Below are positions 17,711-28,834 of a DNA stretch of 64,000 bases, in pieces (the stretch's first letter is position 1; the number at the start of each line of letters is the position of its first letter). The translations under genes and the position numbers were made by a program. Source of the stretch: Escherichia phage vB_EcoM_RZ; sequence record MW598459; one strand, written 5' to 3'. Under the pieces are notes generated by a model, which saw only the letters and a program-made list of their open reading frames with translations, searched no databases and was not told the DNA's origin.

Positions 17711-17754
17711 TTCTCCAGTGGGGTCATTATACTCTGACCCCAAGAGTTTGTACA
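17711..17754 (-). promoter_or_regulatory. T4-type early promoter (44 bp duplicate of 6071-6114)
   Basis: Minus strand TGTACA, 17 nt, TATAAT. Confidence 0.6.
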
Positions 17755-17762
17755 CTTTAAAT

Positions 17763-18515
17763 TTAATTAAAAATTTCAACAACCATGGAACGTGGTACAA
17801 CAGTAAATTCACCAGCATGGACAACGTTCAGGAGTTCAACACTCTCTTCAATCCACTGGTCTGTTACCCAACCACAAATGGAACTGTTAAATGGGCGTTT
17901 GATTTGAACTGGTTTACACAGCAAGTCAATAGGGTCACCCAGTTCGCTAACTTCTTCCAGCAGTACAGATTCACGTGGATAAAGGATAGCTTCAAGATTG
18001 TCACCTGATTCATTGACTGCAGTAAATTCAAAGATGCTTTGGTGATTGTGGTACTTAACTGTTTTAACTGTAAATGGAGCAAATCCAAAAATACCTTTCA
18101 GTACCCGCCAACCGGCATTCAATGCATTAGTATTATCAAAATCACCATATCCAACAAGTTGATAGGTTTTGTCAACTTTGATAGGAGCTTCTTCAACTTC
18201 TTTGAAGAGTTCAATCTCAGCTTCATAAACCATAATTTTTTCTACTTCATTTGTATCAAGGCGACGTGCATGCAGAATATATGCTTTATCAAACCAGTTA
18301 CTTTTTACAAAAGTTTCAACAATAAATTCACCTTCACCTAAAGCATCAGTCAGAGTATTATACCCAGAAACCATAGCTGCATTTTGAATAATAGGTTCAA
18401 TCAGTTGATAAGTTTTGTTAATTTCAATAGTCATATTTTGTTTCTCAAGTTTTAATGGTTTAATTGGGCGAACATACATACTTACAACATCAAAGTCAAT
18501 AAATTCTGGTTTCAT
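17763..18515 (-). CDS. Hypothetical protein (250 aa), paralog of 17123-17683
   Basis: Shared C-terminal motif with neighbour. Confidence 0.5.
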   Translation of the reverse strand: MKPEFIDFDVVSMYVRPIKPLKLEKQNMTIEINKTYQLIEPIIQNAAMVSGYNTLTDALGEGEFIVETFVKSNWFDKAYILHARRLDTNEVEKIMVYEAEIELFKEVEEAPIKVDKTYQLVGYGDFDNTNALNAGWRVLKGIFGFAPFTVKTVKYHNHQSIFEFTAVNESGDNLEAILYPRESVLLEEVSELGDPIDLLCKPVQIKRPFNSSICGWVTDQWIEESVELLNVVHAGEFTVVPRSMVVEIFN

Positions 18516-25393: not shown

Positions 25394-25627
25394 TTAAACT
25401 ACTGGGGTAGGCGTAAACATCGCCGCGTTCTTAGTTCGCCAATCAGCTGCACTAGACGCTACGGTGACATAAGCGGCCTTTTCGGAAGGAAAAGTCTGAT
25501 AGTGTGCATTCGCAATACGATGCTCATTTGAATAGATTTCAAACGGAACAGATACTTCAACACCTTTAACTTCTTTACCTTCACCAGCTGGATGCGTAAA
25601 GGTTTTGATATTAACGAAACCACCCAT
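25394..25627 (-). CDS. soc: Small outer capsid protein Soc
   Basis: 77 aa; VNIKTF...ANAHYQTFPSEKAAY matches recalled T4 Soc. Confidence 0.85.
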   Translation of the reverse strand: MGGFVNIKTFTHPAGEGKEVKGVEVSVPFEIYSNEHRIANAHYQTFPSEKAAYVTVASSAADWRTKNAAMFTPTPVV

Positions 25628-25668
25628 AATTAACTCCTTTGTTGTTTAATTACGGGTGTATTTATAAC

Positions 25669-26205
25669 TTAATAACCCCGGTCCTGACGAGCAAAGTTCT
25701 CGGCATTTTTCAGGTAATACAGTTTAAAGATTTCTTCTGCAGTCAGTCCAAGGCCGTGGAACATGTTCAGAACAAAGTGCAGGATATCAATCATCTCAAA
25801 TTTAATTTCGAGCTGGTCTTCGGGAGACAACTCATCAATACGACGATTACGGAATTCAGCATGTTGGACTTTCCAAGGCTTCCATACACTAGATGCAGCT
25901 TTCTCGCCATTAGACATACCACCGAGAGAAGTCAGAAGTTCACGGAATTCGTCGTCGACATAATCTTTCTGGTTACGAAGCCATGCAACAACATCACCTG
26001 CAGTAGCCAATTCATCTGGATGTGAGTTATATTCTGGTTTTTCAGTAGCCAGACGAACTTGCAATGATTTCTGCATATCAAGCATAATCTGCAGCGGGTC
26101 AGTACCTTTTGTAATCGCATTGTCATAAGCTTCTTCAGCTTTATCAACACCAGCAATCAGTTGGGAACACTCGTTAAAATGAGCCATTATATTTTTCCTT
26201 ATCAA
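25669..26205 (-). CDS. 56: dCTP pyrophosphatase gp56 (MazG-like)
   Basis: 178 aa; position next to soc; similarity to recalled T4 gp56. Confidence 0.8.
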   Translation of the reverse strand: MIRKNIMAHFNECSQLIAGVDKAEEAYDNAITKGTDPLQIMLDMQKSLQVRLATEKPEYNSHPDELATAGDVVAWLRNQKDYVDDEFRELLTSLGGMSNGEKAASSVWKPWKVQHAEFRNRRIDELSPEDQLEIKFEMIDILHFVLNMFHGLGLTAEEIFKLYYLKNAENFARQDRGY

Positions 26206-26271
26206 TTCATATTGTTTGTATGTTAATTATATCGTATTGGTTTGAAGCATAAATACAAGAAAGGAGGATGT

Positions 26272-26469
26272 ATGCTCAAACTATCTAGTCTAATTCAAGC
26301 CATCAAAGGCAGTCGTAAGCGAACGATTCTGGTCCTTTCGATACTCTGTTTTGTTCTACTCTGGAATTTCATTGTTGCCCCTATTGCATTGGCACATGGT
26401 GTTATATTGCCAGTCGTCGCGCTCGAATCAGTTGTAGATGTTTCACTAGCATTAATCGGCCTTATATAG
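26272..26469 (+). CDS. Small membrane protein on the plus strand (65 aa)
   Basis: Strong SD AAAGGAGG 6 nt before ATG 26272; hydrophobic; ORF 26242-26469 trimmed to the SD-linked ATG. Confidence 0.5.
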   Translation: MLKLSSLIQAIKGSRKRTILVLSILCFVLLWNFIVAPIALAHGVILPVVALESVVDVSLALIGLI

Positions 26470-26648
26470 GTGGAACTATGTGAACATTATTCTATCGGAT
26501 TTGGAAATTAACCAGTAAGAAAAGCCCATGATGTTTCTCTGTGGAACTTACTGGTTGTGCCTATCGCTGCAACACAAGGGGTGCACTTACCTCAGGTCAC
26601 AACGGAACATATCCATTCCATCATCGGTTACTTTACCGGAATCCCTTC

Positions 26649-27398
26649 CTAAACTTTTGCGTACTTCCAAAAATGGCCGTTTGACCTATACATTCGGCCT
26701 GTCTTTTTATTTCTTTTACAAGCTGTGTATATATTTTGAGTATTGCCCGCCAATTGTAATAATTCCTTTGCCTCAGCTCCCGAATTATACTTTTCAAGTA
26801 TATTACCAAATTCATCGCATCTACAAACCGGTGTTCCAGTTGCCTTTCGGCATGCTTCTCGGCGCAACTTTTTCGTTTCTTCGGTTTGCGGATTTTCTTT
26901 AAATCGTCTCATTTGTGCATCGCGATTCTTTTGCCGTTGTTCATCAGTAATTGGATTATTTTGATAATACAATTTTAATGAGTTGGCTATTTTGCTTTTG
27001 GTTTTATCAGACACAGGGTGGTCGTTATGTCGCTTGTGTAAAGCAATTAACATTTTGTCTTTAAACTCGGATTGACTCCATAAGTTTGACATATGTTCAC
27101 TAACGGCTTTACTATGTTCTTTTCGCATCCATTCATATTTTGCGCTATCAAATTTGTCACCACACATCCGGTGTATAGCAAACATTAATTTAGAAAGTCG
27201 ATAAATTTTAAAAAGTAACAAATGCGCAATAAAATGTTCTCTTGCTGATAACAATACCAAATTATCTTCGGTGTCAGGCCCACCCAAACACCTTGGTAGT
27301 ATATGATGGGACTCCGTATAAAATGGGATATTCTTTTTGTTTAGGCCCCTTGCGAGGCCTTTGTCTATTAATTTATTATATAATTTTAGATAATTCAT
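26649..27398 (-). mobile_element. HNH homing endonuclease gene (249 aa)
   Basis: N-terminal ESHHILPRCLGGPDTEDNLVLLSAREHFIAH HNH motif; C-terminal helix-turn-helix-like DNA-binding repeats; inserted between 56 and 61. Confidence 0.8.
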
Positions 27399-28423
27399 AT
27401 TTTTGCATATTTGGATAATCGAAGTTTTGCCATTAAACCTTGTGCAATATTATCATTCATATAGGCTTCAATTTGCTCAGGCGTTGCTCCTTCCGATTTA
27501 ATCATTTCATTTATATCTTTCGTATGCCACGGTGCATTGTCCCAGAACATAACAGCTTCTCCTGCATCGACTAATTTCTTCATACGTTTAATCGTATCAG
27601 GATGTCTTGCTTCTGAATCCATCACCCATACTCTGGTTTCTGGATAAGGAACGGCTTCCAATGCTAATGTTCCACCGGTTATCGCAATGCTGTTAGGGAT
27701 AAACAAACTATCAATCGGACCTTCCATTACCCACACGCGCTTGCGCTCGTCAATCTTGTCTACACCATAGACTTTGGAAGCTTCTGGGTGGGCTTTGATT
27801 GTGATATATTTTTGTGGTGCATCTTTGCGAAGAGCTCGTCCTTGGAAAGATTCGATTTCTTTTTTGCCGTTGAAGATAGGAATAACCAAGCGTGGTTCAT
27901 TCGTTTCATTCTTATACGTCCCAGGATTAACGGAGTTAACTAATGCAGGCCATTTGTTTGTAAACCATAACCGGTTCCAAACATTGCTCGGAATACACCG
28001 ACTTTTTACATACTTAACTATCGGATGCGCTTCTGGTAAAGTATCGATTCTTTCGCAAAAAGCAAGCTGCTCAATAACCGGAGTTTTTTCTGGTTCTTTC
28101 GGAGTTTCTGCAACTTCATTACGTTGTCTGCCAAAGGCATTCTCCTTATACTTCTCAACCATATATTCCCGGTGCAAATCCGGCTCAAACTCTTTTATGT
28201 ATTTGCTTATATGCGTGGAGTAGTCACAGTTAAAACATTTCACGTAAACCGCACCATCAGCCGGATTAGTATACGCCCAGAATCGAGCCTTGTGTGAATC
28301 TTTCTGGGAGTCCCCACAAACCTTGCAACGACAGTTTGCTTTAAATGTGCTCCCGGTGACTTCTCTATAACGTGGTTGATACGATAAAGCTCTGACTGCA
28401 AATTCTTTATCAATATATGACAT
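27395..28423 (-). CDS. 61: DNA primase gp61
   Basis: 342 aa; zinc-binding CRCKVCGD...CFNCDYS N-terminus; matches recalled T4 gp61. Confidence 0.9.
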   Translation of the reverse strand: MSYIDKEFAVRALSYQPRYREVTGSTFKANCRCKVCGDSQKDSHKARFWAYTNPADGAVYVKCFNCDYSTHISKYIKEFEPDLHREYMVEKYKENAFGRQRNEVAETPKEPEKTPVIEQLAFCERIDTLPEAHPIVKYVKSRCIPSNVWNRLWFTNKWPALVNSVNPGTYKNETNEPRLVIPIFNGKKEIESFQGRALRKDAPQKYITIKAHPEASKVYGVDKIDERKRVWVMEGPIDSLFIPNSIAITGGTLALEAVPYPETRVWVMDSEARHPDTIKRMKKLVDAGEAVMFWDNAPWHTKDINEMIKSEGATPEQIEAYMNDNIAQGLMAKLRLSKYAKI

Positions 28424-28642
28424 AGTTTCCTCATTTCAATGGCCCCGAAGGACCATTATACTGTAGGTTTATCGTCTTTGTTCTTACGCTTTTTTGATGG
28501 GATTTGTTCAGGGCCTTTATTGACAACTGCCCCGGAAGTGGTACCTGTTGCGATATTAGTTGGGTTTCCACCTGCATCACCGGCAACCATATTTTCGTTG
28601 ATAAAATCTTTGAATGTTTTCATAACACCCCCTTTCCGCTAT

Positions 28643-28834
28643 TTATACAACGAAGATAGCTTTATCACCATTTGCATCAGTCACTTCATAAGTGTCTTCA
28701 TGATACAATGGAATAATCCAGGTAACACCATCATCAGCGATAACATGGATTGCTTCTTGGTCTTGCGACACGATTTCATATTCTTCAAAAATCTGGAAGA
28801 CGGAAATCTTAGAGCCCGTACACATTGCACTCAT
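28643..28834 (-). CDS. Hypothetical protein (63 aa)
   Basis: ORF in minus-strand array. Confidence 0.4.
   Translation of the reverse strand: MSAMCTGSKISVFQIFEEYEIVSQDQEAIHVIADDGVTWIIPLYHEDTYEVTDANGDKAIFVV

What the first reader, a model, noticed from the sequence alone, without database searches (positions are those of the whole stretch)
26210..27398. HNH homing endonuclease plus an opposite-strand membrane ORF between 56 and 61
The 249 aa ORF has a clear HNH motif (ESHHILPRCLGG...NLVLL...EHFIAH) and C-terminal DNA-binding repeats, typical of phage homing endonucleases. Immediately upstream, on the plus strand, is a 65 aa hydrophobic ORF with an unusually strong SD (AAAGGAGG) and a near-late-promoter box CATAAATA, in an otherwise uniformly minus-strand region. 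I believe T4 carries dam near this position, and no methyltransferase is present here. The arrangement looks like a mobile cassette.
Basis: partly seen in the sequence, partly recalled or inferred. Interest (0 to 1): 0.5.

Follow-up and report, generated by a model that had tools for sequence, protein, structure and literature searches.

The report
Homing endonuclease gene behind phage primase gene
A selfish HNH homing-endonuclease gene sits at the very end of the primase gene of this T4-like phage. It is an ordinary kind of element, and the small membrane ORF beside it is an old resident T-even gene, not part of the element.

Summary
Both ORFs exist as described: a 249-aa HNH protein (26649..27398, minus) and a 65-aa hydrophobic protein (26272..26469, plus).

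The HNH gene is a free-standing, MobB-like homing endonuclease gene (HEG).
- At 95% identity or more it occurs in 2 of 50,697 phage records, at this same locus.
- The HEG plus about 270 nt of adjacent gene 61 is 99-100% identical among the three carriers. That gene 61 tract is only 82-84% identical to HEG-free relatives, a co-conversion signature.
- Its start overlaps the gene 61 stop (ATGA). Its last five codons and stop are the displaced original end of gene 61.
- All four full-length relative clusters (53-98% identity) sit in the same slot.

The "cassette" reading fails for the small ORF. HEG-free relatives keep it, and 706 phage records encode it, including T4, where it is unannotated. A decayed second paralogue lies between it and the HEG.

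dam really is missing. It is also missing from HEG-free relatives and from the whole genome of the closest relative, so the HEG did not displace it.

The protein is already annotated "homing endonuclease" in phage vB_EcoM_RZ. This is an uncharacterised member of a known kind, of modest interest.

The parts
25669..26184 (-). Gene 56 (dCTPase). It flanks the locus and is not part of the mobile element.
   Evidence: Pfam dUTPase_2 E 6.8e-6. Annotated as dCTP pyrophosphatase in relatives.
26249..26256 (+). CATAAATA, a 7-of-8 match to the T4 late-promoter box TATAAATA, upstream of the small ORF.
   Evidence: A box of the form NATAAATA sits at the equivalent place in T4 (GATAAATA), Bp7 (TATAAATA), JS98 and L012 (AATAAATA), and VR7 (CATAAATA). 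Promoter function was not tested.
26260..26267 (+). Shine-Dalgarno sequence AAAGGAGG, 4 nt before the ATG of the small ORF.
   Evidence: Read from the sequence. AGGAGG is conserved in the T4, Bp7, JS98, L012, VR7 and UPEC07 copies (GGGGGA in P479's first copy).
26272..26469 (+). Resident 65-aa small membrane-protein gene (type A, phrog_2024). It is conserved across T-even phages and is not part of the HEG insertion.
   Evidence: phrog_2024 E 1.9e-26 over its full length. tblastn hits in 706 phage records, including unannotated T4 17747..17935. Present in HEG-free relatives. Hydropathy is high from residue 20 to the C-terminus.
26478..26652 (+). Decayed second paralogue of the small ORF (type B pseudogene). 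Codon 2 is GGA changed to TGA, and there is an internal frameshifting deletion. The C-terminal half is still readable.
   Evidence: The frames read M*TLFYRIWKLTSKK... and ...SLWNLLVVPIAATQGVHLPQVTTEHIHSIIGYFTGIPS*. The intact P479 copy reads MGTLFYQIWKLTSKKDKKLIMGFLALDVFLWNLLVVPIAATQGVHLLQVTMEHIHSIIGYFTGIPS.
26470..26540 (.). A 71-bp segment present in the window and DK-13 but absent in SP18 and vB_YenM_P8. It is bounded by the 8-bp direct repeat GTGGAACT.
   Evidence: Alignment A1.
26649..26666 (-). Displaced original 3' end of gene 61 (AAG TAC GCA AAA GTT TAG, reading KYAKV*). It now serves as the last five codons and stop of the HEG.
   Evidence: These bases, and the downstream GAAGGGATTCCGG, are identical to the gene 61 end of HEG-free SP18, VR20, P479, VR7 and UPEC07.
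26649..27398 (-). Free-standing HNH homing endonuclease gene (249 aa). The N-terminal half is MobB-like. It is followed by three NUMOD3-like helices and a small C-terminal beta/helix domain.
   Evidence: The protein is an exact match to 'homing endonuclease' YP_010650896.1 of phage vB_EcoM_RZ.
27222..27317 (-). Region encoding the HNH catalytic core (residues 28-59: TESHHILPRCLGGPDTEDNLVLLSAREHFIAH).
   Evidence: Pfam HNH stretch 28-50. Invariant columns. Predicted beta-beta-alpha fold: E28-32, E47-51, H52-66.
27343..27360 (-). Hairpin in HEG codons 13-19 (GGCCUC-GCAA-GGGGCC on the mRNA strand).
   Evidence: A hairpin at the same place is found in Bp7, L012 and MHG19 but not in T4 mobB. Only one-sided base changes were seen, so coding constraint may explain part of it.
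27395..27398 (-). ATGA overlap of the gene 61 stop codon with the HEG start codon. There is no Shine-Dalgarno sequence upstream.
   Evidence: The same ATGA overlap is seen in Bp7 and MHG19.
27395..27660 (-). HEG-linked divergent 3' tract of gene 61, interpreted as a co-conversion tract. Divergence fades out by about 27690.
   Evidence: The tract is 99.2-100% identical among the three HEG carriers but 82-84% identical to HEG-free relatives, whose remaining gene 61 is 96-97.5% identical.
27395..28423 (-). Gene 61 (DNA primase), the host gene of the insertion.
   Evidence: Annotations of relatives. Pfam DNAG_N gives only a weak hit.

Best explanation
The 249-aa ORF is a free-standing HNH homing endonuclease gene that has colonised the 3' end of the primase gene (gene 61) of a Gaprivervirus-type T-even phage.

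Proposed mechanism:
1. Expression. The gene has no recognisable promoter or Shine-Dalgarno sequence of its own. It is read from the gene 61 message, and translation restarts at the ATGA stop/start overlap. This is inferred from the sequence.
2. Cutting. In a mixed infection, the N-terminal HNH domain nicks or cuts the HEG-free allele in or next to the last codons of gene 61. Three NUMOD3-like helices and a C-terminal beta/helix domain guide it to the site. This is inferred by analogy with T4 MobE and I-HmuI.
3. Repair. Recombinational repair copies the HEG from the carrier genome, together with several hundred bases of the carrier's gene 61. The sequence signature of this step is shown here.
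4. Immunity. Carriers would be protected because the site is split and its gene 61 half is recoded. This is inferred.

In this genome the downstream junction lies in a 5-6 nt microhomology ((G)AAGTA). As a result the HEG reads into, and terminates in, the old end of gene 61.

The adjacent small ORF is an unrelated resident gene. It is probably a late-transcribed small membrane protein.
For: Sporadic presence:
- HEG DNA at 95% identity or more occurs in only DK-13 and vB_YenM_P8 among 50,697 phage records.
- About 30 other Gaprivervirus-level matches lack it.
- The five HEG-free alleles inspected carry an intact, scar-free gene 61 end.

Identity island:
- The HEG is 98.9-99.9% identical among the three carriers. 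The adjacent 266 nt of gene 61 are 99.2-100% identical.
- Their flanks are 95-97% identical.
- The same 266 nt are 82-84% identical to HEG-free relatives. The rest of gene 61 in those relatives is 96-97.5% identical.
- Divergence is strongest next to the HEG (19 of 30 matches) and fades by about 27690.

Site fidelity:
- The only full-length relatives are four clusters, at 98, 66, 55 and 53% identity.
- All four sit directly after gene 61 and before gene 56, in four phage lineages.

Enzyme:
- The protein has the residue shared at all 12 invariant columns of the 41-sequence alignment, including the HNH motif.
- It is 48% identical to T4 MobB over residues 1-133 (E 3e-41).
- The structure model is confident (pLDDT 89.5) and shows a beta-beta-alpha core.
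- Homologues carry NUMOD3, NUMOD1 and I-HmuI-like domains.

Junctions: the ATGA overlap, and the reuse of the gene 61 end AAG TAC GCA AAA GTT TAG.

Precedent: T4 MobE is promoterless and overlaps nrdA. It has an internal hairpin terminator, nicks nrdB, and spreads with flanking polymorphisms (PMC2790892; PMC2988022).
Against: - No cleavage, target site or mobility was measured. Everything is comparative.
- The Pfam HNH score is just below the gathering threshold (20.0 against 21.4 bits).
- Structural matches to solved HNH enzymes are weak. All have E above 0.1. I-HmuI has probability 0.85 and covers only about 95 columns.
- The co-conversion tract is one-sided. No divergent tract is seen on the gene 56 side.
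- The tract's donor is unsampled. The best non-carrier match is 84.6%.
- Two different downstream junctions exist among near-identical HEGs: 249-aa and 255-aa forms. Their order of origin is unresolved.
Confidence: 0.8

Rival explanations
1. The HNH gene and the opposite-strand membrane ORF together form one mobile cassette that took the place of dam.
For: The two ORFs are neighbours. T4 has dam between genes 56 and 61, and no Dam homologue is present in the window.
Against: - The small ORF is present without the HEG in SP18, VR20, VR7, UPEC07, P479, JS98 and T4.
- In T4 the small ORF coexists with dam, in the order 56-dam-smallORF-61.
- HEG-free relatives also lack dam at this locus.
- vB_YenM_P8 has no Dam homologue anywhere in its genome.
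- The homology breakpoints of the insertion enclose only the HEG.
Confidence: 0.02
2. The HEG is an old, vertically inherited and now immobile (defunct or domesticated) gene. Its patchy distribution would reflect repeated clean loss rather than gain.
For: - Related HEGs occupy the same slot in four lineages and have diverged to 53% identity, which shows a long association with this site.
- Many T4 Mob genes have no demonstrated activity (table in PMC2988022).
Against: - Loss would have to restore an intact gene 61 end precisely, each time.
- The HEG plus tract is more similar among carriers (99-100%) than their flanks are (95-97%). That is the reverse of what vertical descent predicts.
- Near-identical HEGs sit next to different downstream alleles, with or without the 71-bp segment, and with two junction types.
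- All 12 invariant alignment positions, including the HNH motif, are intact.
Confidence: 0.12
3. The HNH protein serves the phage itself rather than acting as a selfish element. Possible roles include a competition or exclusion nuclease against co-infecting phages, or a replication or repair accessory coupled to primase.
For: Translational coupling to gene 61. In T-even phages, homing and exclusion of a competitor's markers are two aspects of the same act (SegF 'localized marker exclusion', cited in PMC2988022).
Against: Most Gapriverviruses do without it. Nothing in the sequence separates this reading from ordinary homing, and it overlaps with the best explanation rather than replacing it.
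Confidence: 0.05

Closest known systems
T4 MobB (free-standing HNH endonuclease between a-gt and a-gt.2)
   Same: It is the closest T4 paralogue. Identity is 48% over the N-terminal 133 residues (E 3e-41) and about 69% at the DNA level over that part. Both are free-standing and similar in size (264 against 249 aa).
   Different: The C-terminal DNA-binding half shows no significant similarity. The insertion site differs: the end of gene 61 here, a-gt/a-gt.2 in T4. T4 mobB lacks the 5' hairpin. MobB's own target and activity are listed as unknown (PMC2988022).
T4 MobE (HNH, between nrdA and nrdB)
   Same: It is the best-studied model for how this element probably works. MobE is promoterless and expressed from the upstream gene. 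It overlaps the nrdA reading frame and has a hairpin inside its 5' coding region. It nicks the neighbouring gene of HEG-free phage and spreads with flanking polymorphisms (PMC2790892; PMC2988022).
   Different: Identity is only about 31%. The host gene differs. The hairpin here has no downstream U-run on the mRNA strand, so it is not a canonical terminator. No activity data exist for this element.
T4 SegF (GIY-YIG, between genes 56 and soc)
   Same: It is a free-standing HEG in the neighbouring slot of the same gene block and performs intron-less homing or marker exclusion on gene 56 (PMC2988022). SegF-type genes are present in VR7 and P479, and there is an insertion at that slot in DK-13.
   Different: It belongs to a different catalytic family: no GIY-YIG match was found here. 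The window has no segF, since genes soc and 56 are 41 nt apart.
I-HmuI (Bacillus phage SPO1 intron HNH nicking endonuclease, PDB 1U3E)
   Same: Both have an HNH core followed by extended NUMOD-type DNA-binding modules. Foldseek gives probability 0.85, and the I-HmuI_NUMOD-like domain is found in 5 of 41 homologues.
   Different: I-HmuI is intron-encoded. Sequence identity is 17%, only about 95 columns align, and E is 0.16.
HEG insertions that touch coding sequence (T4 MobA at genes 60/39; Aeromonas phage Aeh1 MobE splitting nrdA)
   Same: In each case the HEG is inserted within a gene rather than cleanly between genes, and the host gene remains functional. This comparison rests on my own knowledge plus the table in PMC2988022.
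   Different: Here the host gene is not split. Only its last five codons and stop are duplicated: one recoded copy ends gene 61, and the original copy ends the HEG.

Membership tests
HNH (beta-beta-alpha-metal) nuclease superfamily | HNH motif: a His general base, a conserved Asn and a metal-binding His, on a beta-beta-alpha fold | tested here: met
   - H31/H32, N46 and H55/H59 lie in invariant columns.
- The predicted fold has E28-32, E47-51 and H52-66.
- Pfam HNH gives E 7.7e-4, but its 20.0 bits are below the 21.4-bit cut-off.
- phmmer aligns the motif to HNH domains of solved proteins.
Free-standing homing endonuclease gene | Sporadic presence among close relatives at a fixed site, outside any intron or intein | tested here: met
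   - Two of 50,697 records carry it, at the same site.
- About 30 Gaprivervirus-level matches lack it.
- It has its own ORF with start and stop, and there is no Rfam intron match.
Free-standing homing endonuclease gene | Co-conversion of flanking markers with the HEG | tested here: met
   The 266-nt gene 61 tract is 99-100% identical among carriers and 82-84% identical to non-carriers, with a gradient away from the HEG. This is a sequence signature only, and it is one-sided.
Free-standing homing endonuclease gene | Site-specific nick or break in the HEG-free allele, and resistance of the HEG-carrying allele | not testable with these tools
   Only the sequence difference is shown. HEG-free alleles read ATG CGA CTT TCG AAG TAC GCA AAA GTT TAG. 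Carrier alleles read CTT CGA TTA TCC AAA TAT GCA AAA ATA TGA.
T4 Mob group (MobA-E) | HNH-type free-standing endonuclease of T-even phages, homologous to a named Mob protein | tested here: met
   - MobB: 48% over 133 aa, E 3e-41.
- MobD: 40.6% over 165 aa. MobE: about 31%.
- Homology is limited to the N-terminal half. It is not an orthologue of any named Mob, because site and C-terminal half differ.
Seg group (GIY-YIG) | GIY-YIG catalytic domain | tested here: not met
   No GIY-YIG family appears among Pfam hits, even at E up to 10.
NUMOD3 / NUMOD1 DNA-binding modules | Match to Pfam PF07460 or PF07453 | tested here: inconclusive
   The window protein itself gives no hit. Of its aligned homologues, 24 of 41 match NUMOD3 and 4 of 41 match NUMOD1. 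The model shows three repeated helices and a small C-terminal domain.
phrog_2024 (small T-even membrane protein, function unknown) | Full-length match to the family profile | tested here: met
   E 1.9e-26, residues 1-65 against profile positions 1-65. tblastn finds 706 phage records.
T4 late promoter | TATAAATA box a short distance upstream of the gene | tested here: inconclusive
   The match is 7 of 8 (CATAAATA). The ATAAATA core is conserved at the same position in five lineages, and Bp7 has the exact consensus. No transcription data are available.
Dam (N6-adenine methyltransferase) at the 56-61 locus | A homologue of T4 Dam present | tested here: not met
   Window: best E 0.64. Whole vB_YenM_P8 genome: best E 0.57, with a positive control of 4.6e-178.

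The most novel reading that the evidence does not exclude
The most novel reading concerns the by-product, not the HEG. The plus-strand ORF would be a real, late-expressed small inner-membrane protein of 65-66 aa, conserved across Tequatro-, Mosig-, Dhaka- and Gapriverviruses. It has been overlooked in the reference annotation of T4 itself (NC_000866.4 17747..17935, between dam and gene 61). It converges on, and abuts, the primase gene, and it has a still unknown role late in infection, for example in the envelope, lysis or exclusion. A weaker extension: late transcription from its promoter runs antisense into the HEG and gene 61, and the conserved hairpin at the HEG 5' end handles those transcripts.
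Probability: 0.6. Interest if true: 0.4.

Novelty: new member of a known kind. Interest (0 to 1): 0.3.

Why it matters
This adds an uncharacterised lineage to the T-even free-standing HNH endonucleases. The lineage appears dedicated to one site, the 3' end of the primase gene. It offers a clean natural example of three things:
- a co-conversion tract linked to the HEG;
- translational coupling through an ATGA overlap;
- a junction in which the HEG borrowed the host gene's displaced last codons and stop.

That junction and the recoded gene 61 end point to a small region in which to look for the cleavage site. This makes the element easy to test in phage crosses.

It also corrects an attractive but wrong inference, that a cassette replaced dam. 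And it flags a widely conserved small ORF missing from the annotation of both T4 records checked (NC_000866.4 and MT984581.1). None of this changes what is known about how homing endonucleases work.

Tried and rejected
- Rfam scan of 25600-28500 at E up to 1. It returned only a chance lncRNA hit (E 0.73), so no intron or known RNA is present.
- The conserved stretch of about 110 nt between the small ORF and the HEG as a possible non-coding RNA or bidirectional terminator. Rejected: it is the readable C-terminal half of a decayed paralogue of the small ORF.
- Sigma-70 promoter and terminator scan. Counts are at chance level: 11 promoter-like sites against 9.0 expected, and 1 terminator-like site against 2.5 expected. 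The single terminator-like site is the hairpin inside the HEG, and its T-run is on the antisense strand only.
- Exact TATAAATA in the whole window. Four matches against 4.9 expected, so the count is uninformative. Two of them lie upstream of soc and of the ORF at the gene 61.1 position.
- Foldseek of the model against the PDB. Only weak local HNH matches were found. The extended multi-domain shape prevents a global match.
- Covariation in the HEG 5' hairpin. There were no double compensatory changes in four sequences, so structural selection is not demonstrated.
- Literature searches for a described HEG at the gene 61 end, and for the small ORF in T4. Nothing specific was found.
- Searching for the donor of the divergent gene 61 tract. 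The best non-carrier match is 84.6%, so the donor lineage is not in the collection.
Full report
**What is there**

The region 25.6-28.5 kb of the window is the soc-56-61 block of a T-even phage.
- The closest public records are Yersinia phage vB_YenM_P8 (97%) and Escherichia phage DK-13 (94.5%). DK-13 is classified in the genus Gaprivervirus.
- The HNH protein and the small protein exactly match proteins of Escherichia phage vB_EcoM_RZ. There the HNH ORF is already annotated "homing endonuclease".
- On the minus strand lie gene 56 (25669..26184), a 249-aa ORF (26649..27398) and gene 61, the primase (27395..28423).
- On the plus strand lies a 65-aa ORF (26272..26469), preceded by AAAGGAGG and CATAAATA.

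The small ORF is downstream of and convergent with the HNH gene, not upstream of it.

**The HNH protein**

- It matches phrog_655 "homing endonuclease" (E 4.5e-45).
- It matches Pfam HNH weakly: E 7.7e-4, 20.0 bits against a cut-off of 21.4.
- In a 41-sequence alignment of homologues it has the residue shared at all 12 invariant columns: E29, H31, H32, I33, P35, G39, G40, N46, E54, H55, H59, L62.
- An AlphaFold model (pLDDT 89.5) shows these parts:
  - a beta-beta-alpha core (E28-32, E47-51, H52-66);
  - a helical linker;
  - three helices of 15-17 residues (131-147, 152-168, 173-187), corresponding to the repeats VSDKTKSKIANSLKLYYQNNP / ITDEQRQKNRDAQMRRFKENP / QTEETKKLRREACRKATGTP;
  - a small beta/helix C-terminal domain.
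- The protein itself does not hit NUMOD3.
- Among its aligned homologues, 24 of 41 hit NUMOD3. Some also hit NUMOD1 or the I-HmuI NUMOD-like domain.
- Foldseek against the PDB gives only weak local matches. I-HmuI has probability 0.85 and Cas8-HNH 0.97, all with E above 0.1.
- The closest T4 paralogue is MobB, at 48% over residues 1-133 (E 3e-41), with no similarity in the C-terminal half.
- MobD is 40.6% identical over 165 aa, and MobE about 31%.
- There is no GIY-YIG match, so it belongs with the Mob genes and not the Seg genes.

**It is an insertion, and where exactly**

- HEG DNA at 95% identity or more occurs in only DK-13 and vB_YenM_P8 among 50,697 phage records.
- About 30 other Gaprivervirus-level matches cover only 70-75% of the 2.9-kb query, because they lack it.
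- The HEG-free relatives SP18, VR20, P479, VR7 and UPEC07 all end gene 61 with ...ATG CGA CTT TCG AAG TAC GCA AAA GTT TAG, followed by GAAGGGATTCCGG.
- In the three carriers, gene 61 ends instead with ...CTT CGA TTA TCC AAA TAT GCA AAA ATA TGA. The TGA overlaps the HEG start codon (ATGA).
- In the window and DK-13 the HEG ends ...CAT TTT TGG AAG TAC GCA AAA GTT TAG, followed by GAAGGGATTCCGG.

The last five codons, the stop and everything downstream are therefore the original gene 61 end. The insertion lies inside the last codons of gene 61. One recoded copy of those codons closes gene 61, and the original copy closes the HEG.

Relatives of the HEG end in WKYQ*, WKYH* or WKYTNAKVHV*. The junction therefore sits in a 5-6 nt microhomology, (G)AAGTA, between the natural HEG end (W-K-Y) and gene 61 (S-K-Y).

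vB_YenM_P8 has a different junction: TGG AAG TAT CAA GAT GAT, then GAAGGG. It reads on to a 255-aa product.
- Both forms occur in several independent contigs: 4 cluster members of 249 aa and 8 of 255 aa.
- The 255-aa form keeps the Tyr-Gln codons seen in Bp7, so it may be the older one. This is inference.

**Signature of homing**

| Segment | Window vs vB_YenM_P8 | Window vs DK-13 | Window vs SP18 / UPEC07 / VR20 (HEG-free) |
|---|---|---|---|
| HEG | 98.9% | 99.9% | absent |
| Adjacent 266 nt of gene 61 | 100% | 99.2% | 82-84% |
| Rest of gene 61 | 95.5% | 96.9% | 96-97.5% |

- Among the carriers, the remaining flanks are generally 95-97% identical.
- In 30-nt bins, identity to the HEG-free relatives is 19/30 next to the HEG. 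It reaches 28-30/30 beyond about 27690.
- The best non-carrier match to the tract in the collection is 84.6%, so the donor lineage is unsampled.
- No comparable tract exists on the gene 56 side. Homology to HEG-free genomes resumes abruptly at 26667.

An island of near-identity, joined to a divergent flanking tract that travels with the element, is what endonuclease-triggered gene conversion produces. It is what was documented for T4 MobE (PMC2790892).

**A site-dedicated lineage**

A search of 5.8 billion proteins finds only four clusters of full-length relatives. Beyond them, matches drop to 46% identity or less with partial coverage.

| Cluster | Identity to the window protein | Source |
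|---|---|---|
| P0001 | 98% | the window protein's own cluster |
| P0002 | 66% | metagenome contigs |
| P0003 | 55% | Dhakavirus Bp7 |
| P0004 | 53% | Yersinia phage MHG19 |

- All four sit immediately after gene 61 and before gene 56. They either share the ATGA overlap or are separated by a 2-nt gap.
- In three of the four carrier lineages, gene 61 reads Leu where the HEG-free alleles of SP18, JS98 and T4 read Met. The motif is ...AK/R-L-RL... against ...AK/R-M-RL....
- The exception is the metagenomic carrier L012, which keeps Met.
- This region is a reasonable place to look for the recognition site. That is inference only.

**How it probably works**

1. The gene is promoterless and lacks a Shine-Dalgarno sequence. 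It is read from the gene 61 message by reinitiation at ATGA.
2. The HNH domain nicks or cuts the HEG-free allele near the gene 61 end.
3. The T-even recombination-dependent repair machinery copies the HEG and adjacent carrier sequence.
4. The carrier allele is protected by the insertion and the recoding.

The sequence consequences of step 3 are shown here. Steps 1, 2 and 4 are inferred from the anatomy and from MobE, SegF and I-HmuI (PMC2988022; PMC2790892).

A hairpin in codons 13-19 (GGCCUC-GCAA-GGGGCC) is present at the same place in all four lineages and absent from T4 mobB.
- Only one-sided base changes are seen, and the motif GL.RG partly forces the palindrome.
- It also lacks a U-run on the mRNA strand.
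- It recalls the 5' internal terminators of mobE and segF, but it is not shown to be one.

**The small ORF is not part of the element**

- SP18, VR20, VR7, UPEC07 and P479 have no HEG but keep the ORF at 92-98% identity.
- It matches phrog_2024, function unknown, over its full length (E 1.9e-26).
- tblastn finds it in 706 phage records.
- These include T4 at 17747..17935 on the plus strand: MVQKLMALVNAIKGNKKRIAFTISTMVGILLWNFILSPVAIAHGVNIPVVTLDTFVDLAFALVGLI.
- In T4 it lies between dam and gene 61. It is not annotated in NC_000866.4 or MT984581.1.
- Length (65-66 aa), an AGGAGG Shine-Dalgarno sequence and an NATAAATA box are conserved in T4, Bp7, JS98, a metagenomic phage and the Gapriverviruses. 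Bp7 has the exact late-promoter consensus TATAAATA.
- The invariant residues are K12, K16, L30-W31-N32, P37, A39, G43, V49 and G63.
- The protein is hydrophobic from residue 20 to its end, after a basic N-terminal segment.

The best guess is a late-expressed small membrane protein. Its function is unknown, and no literature on it was found.

**A decayed paralogue**

The 179 nt between the small ORF and the HEG are the remains of a second, Dhakavirus-type copy of the same gene.
- That copy is intact in P479 and is the only copy in Bp7 and JS98.
- In the window, codon 2 is TGA and an internal deletion shifts the frame.
- The C-terminal half is still readable...SLWNLLVVPIAATQGVHLPQVTTEHIHSIIGYFTGIPS*.
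- Its stop overlaps the old gene 61 stop, just as the stop of the intact copy does in P479 and JS98.
- SP18 and vB_YenM_P8 have lost a further 71 bp between two GTGGAACT repeats.

**dam**

- T4 has the order 56-dam-smallORF-61.
- Gapriverviruses and Dhakaviruses have no dam at this locus, whether or not they carry the HEG.
- The whole vB_YenM_P8 genome has no Dam homologue: best E 0.57, against a control of 4.6e-178.
- In T4, dam lies on the other side of the small ORF from the HEG site.

The absence of dam is a lineage trait, not a consequence of this insertion.

**Verdict**

The HNH gene is a free-standing homing endonuclease gene with good comparative evidence of recent spread. It is an uncharacterised, site-dedicated relative of the T4 Mob genes, and it is already annotated as a homing endonuclease in public records. 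The small ORF and the missing dam are unrelated to it. Interest is modest. The most useful by-products are two:
- a precise junction and co-conversion map, which makes the target easy to test;
- a conserved small ORF missing from the T4 annotation.

Noticed in passing
L006 3748-3936 (T4 NC_000866.4 17747..17935, plus strand): T4 itself encodes a 66-aa homologue of the small ORF (52% identity), with TAAAGGAGG and GATAAATA upstream. It lies in the 'empty' gap between dam and gene 61. It is not annotated in NC_000866.4 or MT984581.1, although many T4-like genomes annotate it as a hypothetical protein.
   Followed up: partly
window 26470-26652; L009 2762-2962 (P479): There is a tandem second paralogue of the small ORF. 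It is intact in P479, decayed in the window (nonsense codon plus frameshift), and further truncated in SP18 and vB_YenM_P8 by a 71-bp deletion between GTGGAACT direct repeats.
   Followed up: yes
window 25669-26184 compared with L002 (DK-13), L003 (SP18), L008 (VR20): Gene 56 is strongly mosaic among Gapriverviruses. Identity to the window is 76% in DK-13 and 85-87% in SP18 and VR20, against 96-98% in vB_YenM_P8 and UPEC07. DK-13 carries two extra ORFs between genes soc and 56, the slot that segF occupies in VR7 and P479. This may be a second co-conversion footprint, this one left by SegF-type elements.
   Followed up: no
window 27343-27360; L005, L012 and L017 at equivalent positions: A stable hairpin in codons 13-19 of the HEG is kept in all four gene-61-associated HEG lineages but not in T4 mobB. 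The T-rich run lies on the antisense (plus) strand. It could act on HEG mRNA, or on late antisense transcripts coming from the small-ORF promoter.
   Followed up: partly
L001, L019-L022 (vB_YenM_P8, PP693301.1): The whole genome of the closest relative has no homologue of T4 Dam. Many of its product names are clearly wrong. For example, 'DNA packaging ATPase' is given to a 33-aa ORF inside the decayed paralogue, and srh/modA-region ORFs are named 'molybdenum ABC transporter'.
   Followed up: partly
window 25659-25666 and 28640-28647 (minus strand): Exact TATAAATA late-promoter boxes lie just upstream of soc and of the 55-aa ORF at the gene 61.1 position.
   Followed up: no
whole window: The HNH protein and the small ORF exactly match proteins of Escherichia phage vB_EcoM_RZ (YP_010650896.1 and PP428_gp058). 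The window is probably from that phage or a near-identical one. Per PMC8056088, Gapriverviruses lack known enzymes for non-canonical base synthesis but keep the gp56 dCTPase.
   Followed up: no
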